Shown one piece after another: positions 44,236 to 63,849 of a stretch of 64,000 nucleotides of DNA. The stretch is taken from positions 172,115 through 236,114 of IMG/VR virus record IMGVR_UViG_3300045988_142085; one strand, given 5' to 3'. The notes beneath the pieces are model-generated. The model did no database searches and was not told where the DNA came from. It saw only the letters and a program-made list of their open reading frames with translations. Source of the stretch: a virus. Position 1 is the first letter of the stretch; each line of letters opens with the position of its first letter. The translations under genes were made by a program, and so were the position numbers.

Positions 44236-45150
44236 TGGATCTAGTCTTTAGTTTTAACTAAAGTCGAGACTATATCTTCATCCCTGGTACGATCGAATTT
44301 TCTTTTTAAACATAGGCATCCATCATAATAAATAATTTTTAATAATTCTCGCGCTGTTTTAAAATTATAAGTTATAACATAAATATTTTCTTTGCCTTTT
44401 TTATTTACAGCGTTTGTGTTATGTGGATATAATAATTTTGTCTTTTCATTTAATTCTTTTAGAAAAATTTCATTGCCTAATATTCTTAATCTAGCGCCAA
44501 TATAAATTTTATCACCTTTATAACCTTTTGTAGAATCTATATTCCCATCGCCATCAATTATTCCACGAATAAAATCACGAAGATATTTGTTTGGAACTTT
44601 TGGAAATCTAATTTCTTCAGTTTTTTTATTGCTAGTCATTGAAAAATATTTTTTTAATTTTTTAGTCATTTTAATATTAAAAAATGATGCTCTATAAGAA
44701 TTTGTTTTTTCTCTAAAAACAACTTCTTTTTCTGGACATATGTAATCATTTAATTTTTTTACCATATATCCATCTTTTTCATTAAGCTCAAAAATGATTC
44801 CACTATTCGTTAATGAACCATCTGCTGCTAAAAAACCAAGAAAATAATATTTTTCAGGTGATTCTTTTTCTAAAATATCAAAGTTATAATTATATATTGC
44901 CATATTTATGACCTCCTTATATATCTATTATATTACAAGAAGATAAATATAGCAATACCTATATTACCCAGGGAGCTCTGCACTTCCATCAGCTGTTATG
45001 ATGTACTCCTTACGGATAGTCGTTGAGGCGCTTAAGCTGCCTGCTGATTGCCCAATCCTTTAGATTATCACACTTTGGTACTAAAGGCTCTAAGGGGTTT
45101 CCAGCATATCACAGAGTTTAATTATGCATTGCATTACTGCAAAGGAGAAG
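44236..45150 (-). mobile_element. Group I-like self-splicing intron (~0.9 kb) in the tail tube gene, carrying a LAGLIDADG homing endonuclease ORF. Boundaries approximate.
   Basis: Two halves of a tube-protein paralogue flank the element. It has GC-richer structured non-coding flanks (44904-45133 and 44071-44240) in multiple frames with stops. Its sequence blocks (ggatagtcgttga, ctgctgattg) are shared with the terminase introns. Confidence 0.6.
44241..44903 (-). CDS. LAGLIDADG homing endonuclease (220 aa), intron-encoded.
   Basis: Two LAGLIDADG motifs are present: YFLGFLAADGSL and IRGIIDGDGNID. The ORF is very AT-rich and lies inside the intervening sequence of the tube gene. Confidence 0.75.
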   Translation of the reverse strand: MAIYNYNFDILEKESPEKYYFLGFLAADGSLTNSGIIFELNEKDGYMVKKLNDYICPEKEVVFREKTNSYRASFFNIKMTKKLKKYFSMTSNKKTEEIRFPKVPNKYLRDFIRGIIDGDGNIDSTKGYKGDKIYIGARLRILGNEIFLKELNEKTKLLYPHNTNAVNKKGKENIYVITYNFKTARELLKIIYYDGCLCLKRKFDRTRDEDIVSTLVKTKD

Positions 45151-45367
45151 CAAAAGTGGTATTCTTACCTCTCGAAATGGAGCGAGGCTCTGCTGAACCA
45201 AATGTGTAAACCGGAGCTTTCTCACGGTTAATAGAAACTGTAATACCTTGAATTTCAGCAACTACTTCGGAACCGAATGTAGCTACAATATCACAGCCAG
45301 AGAAAGTAGTATAACTACGAGTGTATTCAGACGCTGTAGTTACACCAGAGTTATTAGAGTAAGCCAT
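45150..45367 (-). CDS. Major tail tube protein, exon 1. The 3' boundary is approximate: the ORF stop at 45131-45133 lies in the intron.
   Basis: MAYSNNSGVTTASEYTRSYTTFSGCDIVATFG... aligns with the N-terminus of the 42214..43458 paralogue. The sequence then diverges into an intron-encoded tail (TFASPLQ stop). Confidence 0.6.
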
Positions 45368-45377
45368 GTGTTAAATA

Positions 45378-45410
45378 ATGGGGCGGAAGTTATCCGCCCC
45401 CTCCTTCTTT
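45378..45410 (-). promoter_or_regulatory. GC-rich hairpin between the sheath and tube genes, overlapping an AAGGAGG Shine-Dalgarno. Candidate attenuator or terminator, or a structured translation-initiation region.
   Basis: The minus strand reads AAGGAGG-GGGCGGA-TAACT-TCCGCCCC-ATTATTTAACAC-ATG. It has an 8-bp G/C stem, the SD lies at the 5' foot of the stem, and the start codon is 12 nt after the stem. Confidence 0.45.
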
Positions 45411-45422
45411 ATTTAAAAACTA

Positions 45423-61407: not shown

Positions 61408-61659
61408 GTTGTTATCCTAGGAGCTTTTTATCTCCCAGTTCTTATAGTTTCCTATAAGGTCGGCATACTTTTTCGTGTTAAATAATGTGAATACACGGTG
61501 CGGGCTCTTGGCAAGATTATATCTTTTCACTTGCTATGCTCTGCCCCTGACTTGTTTAAAATAAGTCTTCGGTTCGAGTTACCATATTAATTATTTAACT
61601 TAGGCTTCTCGCTTAATACCGCACTACATTTATATCGTATAATTCACTTACAATATAAA
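61408..61659 (-). mobile_element. Group I-like intron (ORF-less, ~250 nt) within the terminase large subunit gene. Boundaries approximate.
   Basis: Non-coding structured segment between two in-register terminase nuclease-domain exons. GC-richer than the exons (for example gtcaggggcagagcatagcaagtg). Confidence 0.5.
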
Positions 61660-61857
61660 GGGCAAATTTTTACCGGAACCGCGATCTATATAAATATAGC
61701 TAGGATTATAGATAGCATTCATATCTATAATCTTTTTCACGGCTTTATCAAATGTAAATTCTGAAGATTCAATTTCGGTACGATTAATAATTCTAAATTT
61801 ATTAAATGAAGGATCATACTCTAACACCAGAATCGATGTTGGAGCCTGTGATTTCAT
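61660..61857 (-). CDS. terL: Terminase large subunit, internal exon (nuclease domain). Boundaries approximate.
   Basis: ...TSILVLEYDPSFNKFRIINRTE...IYIDRGSGKN... resembles the beta-strands and acidic catalytic residues of the terminase nuclease domain. Confidence 0.45.
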
Positions 61858-62089
61858 ATATATTCTATTAAGATCGCTAATCTTAATACGCTTTAATGCT
61901 GCTATATATTACTATATAGATTAGACTATATCTTCGGCCTATTATTATAGGTCCGCTGGCCACTTCGGATCGCTTGATCCTACTCCTTATACAAGGATAG
62001 TCGTTGAACCTTTCTCTGTTAGAGACTTGGCTGCTGATTGTCCATTTAGGATATTCCAGCAATTCAACCAGTTTATTACTTATTAATTA
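61858..62089 (-). mobile_element. Group I-like intron (ORF-less, ~230 nt) within the terminase gene. Boundaries approximate.
   Basis: Shares extended sequence blocks with the intron at 62465-62655 and with the tube-gene intron: cgcttgatcctactcc...ggatagtcgttgaacc...gctgctgattgtcc...ccagcaattcaacc. Confidence 0.55.
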
Positions 62090-62464
62090 CTTAATAAGAG
62101 GACAATTCCTATTATCCCAATCCACGCCTATCGTTCTAAACGGATTAGGCGTATAAGTTCTTCTTCCCGGAGGAAGTATATGAACTTTTTTTACGTTAGA
62201 ATCGTCTAAGTCCGGCCAAACCGGCTTATAAAATTCTTTATCAAAATAAGTATAATTATCTATGCGAGTGGCTGCTTCTAACTTATCCTTATCGAATACA
62301 CCAGCTTCTTCGACACCGAACTCTGCTAATACTTCATGTGCATACGCATTTTGATCGTATGTGTTTCTAAATTCTTCTTCCATCGCATCCGACCACATAG
62401 GATTATGTTGTGTCGGGTGATAGTGCTCATTGACAGTTTTGTTGCGATTATGATCGCTACTCAT
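62090..62464 (-). CDS. terL: Terminase large subunit, internal exon (ATPase-domain end through nuclease-domain start). Boundaries approximate.
   Basis: ...AYAHEVLAEFGVEEAGVF... and ...RTIGVDWD... match the conserved terminase linker and the first nuclease Asp strand. Confidence 0.5.
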
Positions 62465-63849
62465 AACCTTCTATATATTTCTATATAGCTCAGACTATAT
62501 CATTATCCTTTTAAATAAAGGATACCTTCCGCTTCGAGCCGCTTGACCCTACTCCTTAACAGGATAGTCGTTGAACGTATCTTATAAAAAATAAGATTTC
62601 GCTGCTGATCGTCCTTACGGATTTTCCAGCAATTCAGAAAATTTTCGTTTATTGATTACTCAATAACGGGGCTATTTTTAAGTTTTTTATTTTTACGATT
62701 AATATCTTTATTTAAATGAACTAAATATTTATCATATTTTCTAGTTAAGAATATAGAAGAATCTTTATATATATAATCCATAACTTTCATAAAAGAATCA
62801 CTATATATTATATAATAATATAAAATATTTCCACTTTCCTTTAATATTGGTTTAATATTATATTCTTTTATTTTTAATTCTTTTTCTAAAAATAATTTAA
62901 TTGATAATAATACGTTATAAGACATACTACATATAGATAATCTTTTTATCGAAGACTCTATGCATCCATCTCCATCAATAAAACCTCGAATAAAATGGCG
63001 TATTAATTTTTTTGGAATAGTATTTGGAATAATTTCTTTACCAGACTTATTGGGAACAATACCATGATAAATTAAATCACGACACATATCTTTTGAACAA
63101 ACTGTCAGTGAATATCCTTCTCTTACATCATCTTTATAATGATGTAATTTAGAACCATAATTTAATTCACTTGCAAGTTTTTCAATAATATATTTATCTT
63201 CTTTTTTAAGCCTAAACTCAAAATTATAGCAATTTTTATTCATGCCAAAATCTGCCATGCCGAATCCAAGATAATATGATTTTATTTCTGTATCTATTTT
63301 TTTAAAATAATCGATATTTAAATTATATTTTTTCTTTAATTCTTCTGCATGTCCTAAATTAAATTTATAGCACCATTCAAGCATTGTATCTTTTTTATAA
63401 CCAGTGGCTTTTGATATTTGAGATAAAGATCCATTAAATTCTCTTAGCTTTTGATCCAACCATTCTTTATTTCTATATAATTTTTTTTCATCAAAAGAAA
63501 TATTATTCTTTTTTATCGATCTAGAAATAGTGTGGACATCAACACTAAAATAATCAGCAATTTCTTGAACTGATTTTGTTTTCAATAAATCTAATAGTAC
63601 TTCTTTATTATGATATGACCTTTTATTATCCTTAGTAAGATTATATTTCTTCATTGCTCTTCTTACTGTGCTTTCAGAGCAACCATATTCCTTAGCTATT
63701 ACAATAACAGATTTTTCTAATAAATCTTTTTCTAGTTTATTTTTATCAATCATAGTACAATTCCTTTTTTAAATATATAAAATAACTATACTTATATATT
63801 ACATCATATTGAATGGAATTGCACATAAAAACCTAAATATTTATTTTTA
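62465..63849 (-). mobile_element. Group I-like intron (~1.4 kb) in the terminase gene, carrying a LAGLIDADG homing endonuclease. Boundaries approximate.
   Basis: Structured non-coding blocks at 62465-62655 and 63754-63849 flank the HEG ORF. The 3' block shares ggatagtcgttgaacg / gctgctgatcgtcc / ccagcaattcag with the other introns. Confidence 0.55.
62656..63753 (-). CDS. LAGLIDADG homing endonuclease (365 aa) with three N-terminal helix-turn-helix repeats, intron-encoded.
   Basis: Motifs SYYLGFGMADFGMN and IRGFIDGDGCIE. Three repeats of a ~35-aa HTH module (IAKEYGCSESTVRRAMKKYNL, EIADYFSVDVHTISRSIKKNNI, QISKATGYKKDTMLEWCYKFNL). Extremely AT-rich. Confidence 0.7.
   Translation of the reverse strand: MIDKNKLEKDLLEKSVIVIAKEYGCSESTVRRAMKKYNLTKDNKRSYHNKEVLLDLLKTKSVQEIADYFSVDVHTISRSIKKNNISFDEKKLYRNKEWLDQKLREFNGSLSQISKATGYKKDTMLEWCYKFNLGHAEELKKKYNLNIDYFKKIDTEIKSYYLGFGMADFGMNKNCYNFEFRLKKEDKYIIEKLASELNYGSKLHHYKDDVREGYSLTVCSKDMCRDLIYHGIVPNKSGKEIIPNTIPKKLIRHFIRGFIDGDGCIESSIKRLSICSMSYNVLLSIKLFLEKELKIKEYNIKPILKESGNILYYYIIYSDSFMKVMDYIYKDSSIFLTRKYDKYLVHLNKDINRKNKKLKNSPVIE

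What the first reader, a model, noticed from the sequence alone, without database searches (positions are those of the whole stretch)
44904..62655. The terminase and tube introns belong to one closely related intron family (shared sequence blocks)
The blocks ggatagtcgttga(g/a)(g/c), gctgctgat(t/c)g(t/c)cc and ccagca(a/t)t(t/a)ca recur with the same order and spacing at three sites. These are 45011-45115 (tube intron), 61990-62070 (terminase intron 2) and 62555-62640 (3' part of terminase intron 1). A ctatatag(a/c)t(t/c)agactatat block recurs at 61911-61930 and 62485-62505. This points to recent intra-genomic spread or homing of one intron lineage into different essential genes. At least two copies have acquired different LAGLIDADG ORFs.
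Basis: seen in the sequence. Interest (0 to 1): 0.55.

Follow-up and report, generated by a model that had tools for sequence, protein, structure and literature searches.

The report
Group I introns in phage genes
The repeated blocks are the catalytic core shared by a huge class of phage self-splicing (group I) introns: the two terminase introns really are old sister copies, the tail-tube intron is a separate lineage, and this is an ordinary, well-known kind of mobile element apart from one oddity at the tube intron's 3' end.

Summary
The blocks are real, in the stated order, and non-random. Their spacing differs at the tube site. They are the reverse complement of the conserved group I core (J3/4-P4, P4'-P6, J6/7-P7, P7'-P9). 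The P7-P7.1 block alone occurs in more than 120 unrelated viral contigs.

All genes lie on the minus strand. The window holds four introns:
- terminase T1, 63849-62434, with its ORF in the P1 loop
- terminase T2, 62113-61855, without an ORF
- terminase T3, 61671-61405, of another class
- tube intron, 45166-44236, with its ORF in the P8 loop

Uninterrupted homologues and intron-less alleles confirm every exon junction.

T1 and T2 are 71-74% identical. They share their peripheral helices and cluster, with a third sublineage 5 nt from T2's site in sister phages, in a clade found only in this phage group. Compensatory changes support the fold at 28 of its 71 pairs. Their endonuclease genes share architecture and position but only 33% identity, so the split is old, not recent.

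The tube intron is 59-60% identical to T1 and T2, which is background for this class. Same-site orthologues are 88-98% identical.

Sister phages show every presence/absence combination, ORF-less forms and a co-conversion signature, so these introns are mobile.

Unexplained: the tube intron lacks the canonical 3'-terminal G.

The parts
63850..64000 (-). Terminase large subunit, exon ending ...NNKALG + U (gene start lies beyond the window end)
   Evidence: Translation. Alignment to uninterrupted terminases of Moorella MTATph1 and Bacillus KLEB27-3 and WH1 (A2).
62434..63849 (-). Terminase intron T1 (1416 nt), group I. 5' exon ends GGGU; intron ends ACUG.
   Evidence: Rfam RF00028, 101.4 bits, at 62690-62471. 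The junction KALG|F matches the Moorella terminase in length. ORF-less and ORF-bearing orthologues sit at the same site in 26 sister loci, 81-91% identical in the core.
62656..63753 (-). T1 intron ORF, 365 aa: N-terminal helix-turn-helix repeats plus a LAGLIDADG domain. It sits in the P1 loop. Its last codons (SPVIE, stop) overlap the guide sequence GCCC (62672-62669), P2 and the GUAA loop of P2.
   Evidence: Pfam LAGLIDADG_3 35.1 bits (cutoff 22.5) and HTH_23 31.4 bits. phrog_4645, E 7e-53. Minimal site-1 alleles have P1 closed by a 7-nt loop (A4).
62114..62433 (-). Terminase exon 2 (F NEHYHP ... IGVDWD)
61855..62113 (-). Terminase intron T2 (259 nt), ORF-less group I intron. P1 is GGGAU/GUCCU. 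It has an extra P9.1 hairpin beyond the Rfam model and ends AUAUG.
   Evidence: Rfam RF00028, 106.6 bits, at 62123-61902. The junction VDWD|K falls on invariant residues. Orthologues are 89-95% identical. Covariation supports the fold. It still reads C-P-L-I-K-stop over the guide sequence and P2, like the ORF-bearing alleles.
61672..61854 (-). Terminase exon 3 (KSQAPTS...YIDRGSG)
61405..61671 (-). Terminase intron T3 (267 nt).
   Evidence: Weak Rfam RF00028 hit, 26.4 bits, E 0.012. The junction RGSG|EYQ falls on invariant residues. Orthologues are 85-98% identical in 30 loci, and the intron is absent from others. No blastn similarity to T1, T2 or the tube intron.
60823..61404 (-). Terminase exon 4 (EYQMESL... 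to the stop codon)
45167..45367 (-). Tail tube gene exon 1 (M...PRSISRG)
   Evidence: Alignment A1. Intron-less alleles L127-L129 encode a protein 100% identical to the spliced one.
44236..45166 (-). Tail tube intron (931 nt), group I with a long P5 extension. P1 is GAGAGGU/GCUUCUC. P10 is 11 of 12 bp (AAAAGAGGUAUU / AAUACCACUUUU). P8 is UCCCUGG (44974-44968) with CCAGGGA (44287-44281). The P7 3' strand is at 44276-44268. The last nucleotide is A, not G.
   Evidence: The ORF-less orthologue L166:3033-3281 scores 67.9 bits on RF00028. Junction and P10 covariation. Orthologues are 88-98% identical.
44241..44903 (-). Tube intron ORF, 220 aa: LAGLIDADG-type endonuclease without the helix-turn-helix extension. 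It sits in the P8 loop, and its 3' end encodes the P8 3' strand, J8/7, the P7 3' strand and P9.
   Evidence: phrog_4645, E 1.7e-30. Pfam LAGLIDADG_3 19.5 bits, below the 22.5 cutoff. 29% identity over 212 aa to the T1 ORF, E 5e-13. PDB 2dch (putative homing endonuclease), E 0.002.
43750..44235 (-). Tail tube gene exon 2 (KRGIAGTIVF... to the stop codon)

Best explanation
The window comes from a roughly 230-kb myovirus-type phage, a distant relative of Bacillus phage 0305phi8-36. Its terminase and tail-tube genes are interrupted by self-splicing group I introns.

T1 and T2 are paralogues within one intron-plus-endonuclease lineage.
- That lineage carries a helix-turn-helix + LAGLIDADG gene in the P1 loop, with its stop codon in the P2 loop.
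- It has colonised at least three positions in the terminase gene, with the guide sequence re-matched to each new 5' exon.
- The window's T2 has lost the ORF.
- The split is old.

The tube intron belongs to a separate lineage. It has a P5 extension, lacks P9.1, and carries a shorter LAGLIDADG gene in the P8 loop.

Spread through the phage population is inferred to occur by endonuclease-driven homing during co-infection.

Shown here: intron identity, boundaries, fold, relationships, and population polymorphism. Inferred, not shown: actual splicing and actual endonuclease cleavage.
For: - Identity as group I introns: RF00028 scores of 106.6 and 101.4 bits for T2 and T1, and 67.9 bits for the ORF-less tube orthologue.
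- Blocks are the core: they align to upper-case consensus positions of RF00028. blastn hits only the intron cores in about 260 GenBank phage records.
- Junctions: invariant residues in uninterrupted homologues and intron-less alleles encoding a 100% identical protein.
- T1-T2 kinship: 74.1% identity over 205 nt and 71% in the core alignment. UPGMA at 30% distance puts site-1, site-2a and site-2b introns in one cluster of 39, found only in this phage group. Mean group identities are 0.78, 0.75 and 0.71, against 0.63-0.69 to the foreign groups.
- Fold: in 33 clade members 95.9% of cells pair, 28 pairs change on both sides, and the covariation score is 0.280 against 0.04-0.065 for slid controls.
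- Guide sequences fit each site: GCCC with GGGU, GGUCC with GGAUU, GUCCU with GGGAU.
- Endonucleases: the T1 ORF and the site-2a ORF of L201 share 33% identity over 317 aa, with the same architecture, position and C-terminal overlap.
- Tube intron is separate: only 13-27-nt blastn blocks against T1 or T2; 59-60% core identity; rank about 145-150 of 187; 0.56-0.60 identity to every other group.
- Mobility: every occupancy combination occurs in sister phages. ORF-less and ORF-bearing forms occur at the same site. 26 of the 52 synonymous differences from an intron-less allele fall within 120 nt of the tube junction.
Against: - No transcript or splicing data exist. No spliced-junction sequence was found in IMG/VR or JGI contigs.
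- The clustering rests on MAFFT p-distances and UPGMA over about 190-nt composite cores, not on a bootstrapped structural phylogeny.
- The foreign cores were sampled with one exact pattern and are not a random sample.
- Introns recombine: the P6a segment is identical between site-2a and site-2b alleles. Part of the T1-T2 similarity could therefore come from gene conversion rather than descent.
- The window's tube intron lacks the canonical terminal G, so its splicing competence is not assured.
Confidence: 0.85

Rival explanations
1. One reading: all three introns are recent copies of one intron that spread within this genome into different essential genes.
For: Shared blocks in the same order. 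Both ORFs fall in phrog_4645. All three have P7.1 and P7.2 and the same P7 sequence.
Against: - Tube versus T1 or T2 is 59-60% identical, which is background for the class.
- The peripheral architecture differs (P5 extension, P6, no P9.1) and the ORF sits in a different loop.
- T1 and T2 are only 71-74% identical, and their lineages' endonucleases 33%.
- Same-site orthologues across phages whose terminase proteins differ by up to 20% are 81-95% identical, so the paralogues predate the radiation of the group.
Confidence: 0.05
2. T1 and T2 were acquired independently from different donors. Their extra similarity comes from later recombination or gene conversion between introns living in the same gene.
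For: P6a is mosaic. ORF-less site-2a alleles carry a 30-nt P6a identical to that of site-2b alleles, while the window's T2 and the ORF-bearing site-2a alleles carry another. Intron and exon similarity are discordant: the T2 orthologues at 95% sit in terminases only 80-83% identical, whereas terminases 98% identical carry orthologues at 89%.
Against: - Similarity extends over all helices, including P2, P7.1, P7.2, P9 and P9.1 (A4).
- It also covers the endonuclease gene, its loop position, and its unusual C-terminal overlap with the guide sequence and P2. Piecemeal conversion would not easily create this.
- The clade contains no foreign members among 188 cores.
Confidence: 0.1

Closest known systems
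Rfam RF00028 group I introns, phage subgroup IA2 (T4 td, nrdB and nrdD; SPO1; Staphylococcus phage Twort orf142 introns). Subgroup assignment and examples are from my own knowledge.
   Same: The P1-P9 core, with P7.1 and P7.2 between P7 and the P3 3' strand. A U.G pair at the 5' splice site. Near-consensus J6/7-P7 and P7' sequences. Endonuclease ORFs in peripheral loops. The best GenBank hits to the T1 core are Staphylococcus myoviruses, at about 73% over about 180 nt.
   Different: New insertion sites and host genes. The T1/T2 clade has its own P9.1 with a UAGCGA-type loop, and an ORF whose stop codon lies in the P2 loop. The tube intron has a large P5 extension, a 12-nt P10, and in this window no terminal G.
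Three related introns in one gene of phage Twort (Landthaler and Shub 1999; recalled from memory, not read here)
   Same: Several closely related group I introns of one lineage inside a single phage gene, as with the site-1, site-2a and site-2b introns of the terminase here.
   Different: Different gene and phage group. Here occupancy is polymorphic across a natural population, and two sublineages use sites 5 nt apart.
Multi-intron terminase genes: Bacillus jumbo phage AR9 (terminase CDS annotated as a join of 5 pieces) and Bastillevirinae (5 of 52 terminase genes split, some by 2-3 introns; PMC11878797)
   Same: The terminase large subunit is interrupted by several group I introns. Intron subgroup and endonuclease type are decoupled. 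IA2-like cores. The tube core matches an AR9 terminase intron at 82% over 86 nt.
   Different: Different insertion positions. The endonucleases there are mostly HNH or VSR-like; here they are LAGLIDADG. A split tail-tube gene is not among the four Bastillevirinae gene families.
LAGLIDADG homing endonucleases (Pfam PF14528 / PF00961; phrog_4645; PDB 2dch)
   Same: Two LAGLIDADG-like motifs: YYLGFGMADFG and FIRGFIDGDGC in the T1 ORF, YFLGFLAADGS and FIRGIIDGDGN in the tube ORF. Both are intron-encoded.
   Different: The T1-type ORF has about 140 aa of N-terminal helix-turn-helix repeats. The tube ORF scores below the Pfam cutoff. No activity data exist.

Membership tests
Group I intron (RF00028) | Score at or above the curated gathering threshold of the covariance model (50 bits) | tested here: met
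   T2 106.6 bits and T1 101.4 bits. The tube intron itself is not hit because a 663-nt ORF splits P8. Its ORF-less orthologue L166:3033-3281, about 94% identical, scores 67.9 bits. T3 scores only 26.4 bits.
Group I intron (RF00028) | Excision restores an uninterrupted, conserved reading frame | tested here: met
   The junctions VDWD|K, RGSG|EYQ and SRG|KRG fall on invariant residues of uninterrupted homologues. Intron-less tube alleles give a 100% identical protein. One sister terminase locus lacks all three introns (L191).
Group I intron (RF00028) | 5' exon ends in U paired with G of an internal guide sequence (P1) | tested here: met
   T1 GGGU/GCCC; T2 GGGAU/GUCCU; tube GAGAGGU/GCUUCUC; site-2b GGAUU/GGUCC.
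Group I intron (RF00028) | 3'-terminal guanosine (omega-G) | tested here: not met
   Met for T1 (ACUG|), T2 (AUAUG|) and T3 (ACGUG|). Not met for the window's tube intron. Every in-frame, protein-preserving junction leaves a terminal A (..GAUCCA|AAAAGAGG). Sister alleles with the same core end ..CAAAG|..CUAG| or ..AAUG|.
Group I intron (RF00028) | Core helices supported by compensatory substitutions | tested here: met
   Terminase clade: 28 of 71 pairs change on both sides, 95.9% of cells pair, and 0 of 500 shuffles reach the observed score. P3, P5, P6a, P7.1, P7.2, P8, P9 and P9.1 all covary; P4 and P7 are invariant. Tube clade: P10, P2 and P8 covary by eye; not counted formally.
Subgroup IA2 (definition from my own knowledge: P7.1 and P7.2 inserted between P7 and the P3 3' strand) | Presence of P7.1 and P7.2 hairpins | tested here: met
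   Helices 9 and 10 covary (3 of 4 and 3 of 5 pairs change on both sides). The tube intron has UCC-GUAA-GGA and CAUCA-UAACAGC-UGAUG at the same place. No subgroup-specific models were run.
Group I intron: self-splicing activity | Guanosine-dependent excision and exon ligation | not testable with these tools
   No transcript data. No spliced-junction sequence in two public collections.
LAGLIDADG homing endonuclease | Pfam LAGLIDADG model at or above the gathering score | tested here: met
   T1 ORF: PF14528 35.1 bits against a cutoff of 22.5. Tube ORF: 19.5 bits, below the cutoff, but homologous to the T1 ORF (E 5e-13) and in the same PHROG (E 1.7e-30).
LAGLIDADG homing endonuclease | Site-specific cleavage of the intron-less allele | not testable with these tools
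   Only indirect evidence: intron-less alleles exist, and synonymous differences cluster around the insertion site.
   Holds approximately for T1 and T2: they are each other's best blastn match outside same-site orthologues (106 bits), but three viral-contig introns (109-128 bits) score above T1 for T2, and the clustering places them in one exclusive clade. Fails for the tube intron: it ranks 145-150 of 187 from T1 or T2, and its best non-orthologous matches are Acinetobacter, Pseudomonas and Bacillus phage introns at 82-84% over 80-100 nt.

The most novel reading that the evidence does not exclude
The window's tail-tube intron, and about 20 sister contigs with two different 3' tails (..GRUCCA| and ..UUUUCA|), may be natural group I introns that ligate exons without a 3'-terminal guanosine. 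The 3' splice site would then be fixed by an unusually long, covarying P10 (11 of 12 bp) stacked on P1. Sister alleles with an identical catalytic core and a normal terminal G provide a ready-made natural comparison.
Probability: 0.3. Interest if true: 0.7.

Novelty: new member of a known kind. Interest (0 to 1): 0.3.

Why it matters
As stated, the finding is ordinary. Mobile group I introns with LAGLIDADG genes in phage terminase and structural genes are well documented. The correction still matters for annotation:
- The shared blocks mark the ribozyme core, not recent duplication.
- The terminase and tube genes should each be annotated as one spliced gene.

The sister-phage population offers a clean natural data set for several processes:
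- one intron-plus-endonuclease unit retargeting to new sites
- ORF loss that leaves scars
- recombination between introns
- co-conversion of flanking exons

The missing terminal G, if the intron really splices, would touch a rule treated as universal for this ribozyme class.

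Tried and rejected
- A permissive Rfam scan of 43.5-46.5 kb did not find the tube intron. The cause is the ORF in P8, resolved through the ORF-less orthologue.
- My first guess for the tube P7 3' strand (AAUAUAGGU upstream of the ORF) was wrong. The true strand lies inside the ORF's 3' end.
- MAFFT on the three cores alone misaligned the tube P5-P6 region (A3). I did not use it for identities.
- I listed all 5' and 3' splice-site combinations for the tube intron that have U at -1 and a terminal G. None is in frame while preserving the invariant SRGKRGIAG. 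The only in-frame one (AUUU| + UAG|) gives RSIYPKRG, has a 4-bp P1, and is contradicted by intron-less alleles and by P10 covariation.
- Splicing at the upstream UAG| followed by a -1 frameshift on C-CAA-AAA-G would add two residues. It also cannot apply to the ..UUUUCA| alleles, which have no nearby G.
- Searches for a spliced-junction sequence (cDNA, or precise loss with co-converted exons) in IMG/VR and JGI metagenome contigs found nothing.
- No further intron copies are in the window. The 15-nt P7 block has only 3 hits at up to 2 mismatches. Rfam at E up to 1 adds only T3. ORFs of 90 aa or more cover 1-43 kb without gene-sized gaps.

Full report
**Observation**

- GGATAGTCGTTGARS occurs exactly three times in 64 kb even with two mismatches allowed. 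None of 100 shuffles reach that.
- GCTGCTGATYGYCC is exact in the two terminase copies and has one mismatch in the tube copy.
- The 20-nt CTATATAG..AGACTATAT block is exact at 61912 and 62481.
- The short CCAGCAWWTCA block is present at all three sites but is not significant alone.

The order is shared. The spacing is not: 26/35/39 nt and 61/26/25 nt for tube/T2/T1.

**What the blocks are**

All genes in this half of the window are on the minus strand. Read as RNA, the blocks are:
- UGAAUUGCUGG (J3/4-P4)
- GGACAAUCAGCAGC (P5'-P4'-P6)
- GUUCAACGACUAUCC (J6/7-P7)
- GAUAUAGUCU..CUAUAUAG (P7'-P9)

Rfam's group I model hits 62123-61902 at 106.6 bits and 62690-62471 at 101.4 bits. The blocks align to the most conserved consensus positions.

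blastn against 50,697 GenBank phage records matches only the intron cores. These hits fall in about 260 records of Staphylococcus, Bacillus, Acinetobacter, Pseudomonas and Clostridioides phages, at 70-87% identity. The blocks therefore identify the ribozyme class, not a close family.

**Anatomy**

- Context: the phage is a distant relative (27-47% amino-acid identity) of the Bacillus 0305phi8-36, KLEB27-3 and WH1 phages and of Moorella MTATph1.
- Junctions: alignment of conceptually spliced proteins to their uninterrupted genes fixes the junctions on invariant residues. These are VDWD|K for T2, RGSG|EYQ for a third terminase intron T3, KALG|F for T1, and SRG|KRG for the tube gene.
- T1 (63849-62434): a 365-aa ORF sits in the P1 loop. 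The guide sequence GCCC lies just 5' of P2, and the ORF's stop codon is in the GUAA loop of P2.
- T2 (62113-61855): no ORF, and a P9.1 hairpin beyond the Rfam model.
- Tube intron (45166-44236): its 220-aa ORF lies in the P8 loop, and the ORF's last ~60 nt encode the P8 3' strand, J8/7, the P7 3' strand and P9. That insertion is why Rfam misses it. The ORF-less orthologue in a sister phage scores 67.9 bits.
- T3 (61671-61405): a different kind of intron, 26.4 bits, with no similarity to the others.
- No other intron is in the window.

**Are the three one close family?**

By local blastn, T1 core against T2 is 74.1% over 205 nt (106 bits). The tube intron shares only 13-27-nt core blocks with either.

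I extracted 263 cores (188 unique) from the window and all fetched loci and aligned them.
- T1-T2 identity is 71%. Tube-T1 is 59% and tube-T2 is 60%.
- About 145 of 187 other cores are closer to T1 or T2 than the tube intron is.
- Mean identity of the tube group to every other group is 0.56-0.60, which is background.
- The tube core's best non-orthologous matches are introns of Acinetobacter, Pseudomonas KIL and Bacillus AR9/PBS1 phages, at 82-84% over 80-100 nt.
- The terminase introns of this phage group form one cluster of 39 at 30% distance, with no foreign member.

**The sister-phage population**

IMG/VR holds dozens of contigs, many of about 230 kb. Their tube proteins are 87-100% identical to the window's and their terminase proteins 79-100% identical.

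Terminase gene:
- The part of the gene visible in the window has four insertion positions.
- Site 1 holds T1-type introns of 240-310 nt, or about 1420 nt with the ORF.
- Site 2b lies after GAU U|GG and holds 244-260-nt introns.
- Site 2a lies 5 nt downstream, after UGG GAU|. It holds T2-type introns of 260-278 nt, or 1202-1334 nt with an ORF.
- Site 3 holds T3-type introns.
- Each site is occupied or empty in different combinations. One locus lacks all of them (L191).
- Site-2b introns are closer to T1 (0.78) than to their neighbour T2 (0.71).
- Each sublineage's guide sequence matches its own 5' exon.

Tube gene:
- There are at least four sites.
- The window's site carries ORF-less introns of 249-269 nt, ORF-bearing introns of 931-967 nt with three ORF variants, or nothing.
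- T3-like introns occupy another tube site.

**Fold**

On an alignment of 33 distinct terminase-clade introns with a hand-drawn structure (P1-P9.1, P7 as a pseudoknot):
- 95.9% of cells pair.
- 28 of 71 pairs change on both sides, in 215 cells.
- The covariation score is 0.280, against 0.133 for shuffles and 0.04-0.065 for slid controls.
- P4 and P7 are invariant and so uninformative. P3, P5, P6a, P7.1, P7.2, P8, P9 and P9.1 all covary.

**Age and mode of spread**

- ORF-bearing site-2a alleles carry a 324-aa helix-turn-helix + LAGLIDADG gene in the P1 loop. It ends ..SPLIK-stop across the guide sequence and P2, just as the T1 ORF ends ..SPVIE-stop. The two proteins are 33% identical over 317 aa.
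- The window's ORF-less T2 still reads C-P-L-I-K-stop there, so it is most simply an ORF-deleted derivative.
- T1 and T2 thus descend from one intron-plus-endonuclease unit, but long ago.
- Same-site orthologues are on average 88-90% identical across phages whose terminase proteins differ by up to 20%.
- The roughly 300-nt site-1 alleles keep both flanks of the ORF, as deletion scars.
- P6a is mosaic between site-2a and site-2b alleles.
- Intron and exon similarities are discordant.
- 26 of the 52 synonymous differences between the window's spliced tube gene and an intron-less allele that encodes the identical protein lie within 120 nt of the junction. This is the expected trace of co-conversion during homing.

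**The ORFs**

Both window ORFs fall in phrog_4645 (7e-53 and 1.7e-30). The T1 ORF passes Pfam LAGLIDADG_3; the tube ORF falls just short. They are 29% identical over 212 aa. So 'different LAGLIDADG ORFs' is correct: they are distant homologues inserted in different loops.

**Unexplained**

In many sister alleles the tube intron ends canonically (..CAAAG|AAAAGAGG..CUAG|..AAAUG|AAACGCGG). The window ends ..GACUAGAUCCA|AAAAGAGG. About 20 contigs with two other tails (..GGUCCA|..UUUUCA|) likewise have no G at the only junction that preserves the protein.
- The guide region pairs contiguously with the ligated exons: P1 is 7 bp and P10 is 11 of 12 bp.
- P10 covaries with exon 2 (AAAAGAGGUAUU/AAUACCACUUUU against AAACGCGGUAUU/AAUUCCGCGUUU).
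- The catalytic core is identical between the two allele types.
- Either these introns ligate without omega-G, or they splice poorly, or something unseen intervenes.
- No transcript evidence was found.

**Comparison and verdict**

Multi-intron terminase genes and IA2-like phage introns with decoupled endonucleases are established. AR9's terminase is annotated as five joined pieces. Bastillevirinae terminases are split by up to three introns (PMC11878797).

The finding is a new member of a known kind.

Noticed in passing
window 44236-44246 (minus strand); sister alleles for example L150, L154, L114, L145, L149: The tube intron has no 3'-terminal G at the only junction that preserves the invariant SRGKRGIAG (..GAUCCA|AAAAGAGG). 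Sister alleles with an identical core end ..CAAAG|, ..CUAG| or ..AAUG|. About half of the sampled alleles lack the G.
   Followed up: partly
window 45127-45166 and 44224-44235 (minus strand): The tube intron has an unusually long P10. Exon 2 (AAAAGAGGUAUU) pairs 11 of 12 with intron nucleotides 4-15 (AAUACCACUUUU), contiguous with the 7-bp P1. It covaries with exon 2 in alleles reading AAACGCGGUAUU/AAUUCCGCGUUU.
   Followed up: yes
window 61405-61671 (minus strand); L134:3160-3482 and similar: A fourth intron (T3) of an unrelated class splits the terminase at RGSG|EYQ. Its relatives (76-77% over 130 nt) occupy a different site (after aa 53) of the tail-tube gene in sister phages. A second intron family has therefore also crossed between these two genes.
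   Followed up: partly
L186-L237 (terminase) and L127-L185 (tube): Sister phages show extreme intron polymorphism. There are at least four sites in the terminase region visible here, plus two more intron groups just upstream of LDEMDY (beyond window position 64000). The tube gene has at least four sites. Occupancy ranges from none to several.
   Followed up: partly
L213/L218 versus L214/L224 around the VDWDK codons; window 62109-62120: Two intron sublineages use insertion points only 5 nt apart (GAU U|GG and UGG GAU|) in the conserved nuclease motif. The one nearer T2's site is more similar to T1.
   Followed up: yes
window 62085-62103 (minus strand); L201:2794-3768: The ORF-less T2 still reads C-P-L-I-K-stop across its guide sequence, P2 and the P2 loop. 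This matches the C-terminus of the 324-aa endonuclease in ORF-bearing orthologues, so T2 looks like an ORF-deleted derivative.
   Followed up: yes
window 43750-45367 versus L127:3001-3684: The proteins are 100% identical, yet 26 of the 52 synonymous differences lie within 120 nt of the intron site. For example, TCG AGA GGT|AAA AGA GGT ATT GCA in the window against TCC CGT GGC AAG CGC GGT ATT GCC in L127 (other intron-less alleles read TCT CGT GGT AAG CGC GGT ATC GCC).
   Followed up: yes
window 62022-62044; L190, L214, L213, L216: The P6/P6a segment is mosaic. ORF-less site-2a alleles share an identical 30-mer with site-2b alleles. The window's T2 and the ORF-bearing site-2a alleles have a different hairpin. 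This indicates recombination between intron lineages.
   Followed up: partly
L186, L206, L227, L190, L208 (site-1 introns of 299-310 nt): Intermediate-length site-1 introns retain the sequence on both sides of the endonuclease gene but not the gene itself. These are scars of ORF deletion inside the P1 loop.
   Followed up: partly
window 53030-53126 (minus strand): Sub-threshold Rfam match to the nqrA-II motif (33.9 bits against a gathering score of 55, E 0.11), between two structural genes. Probably chance.
   Followed up: no
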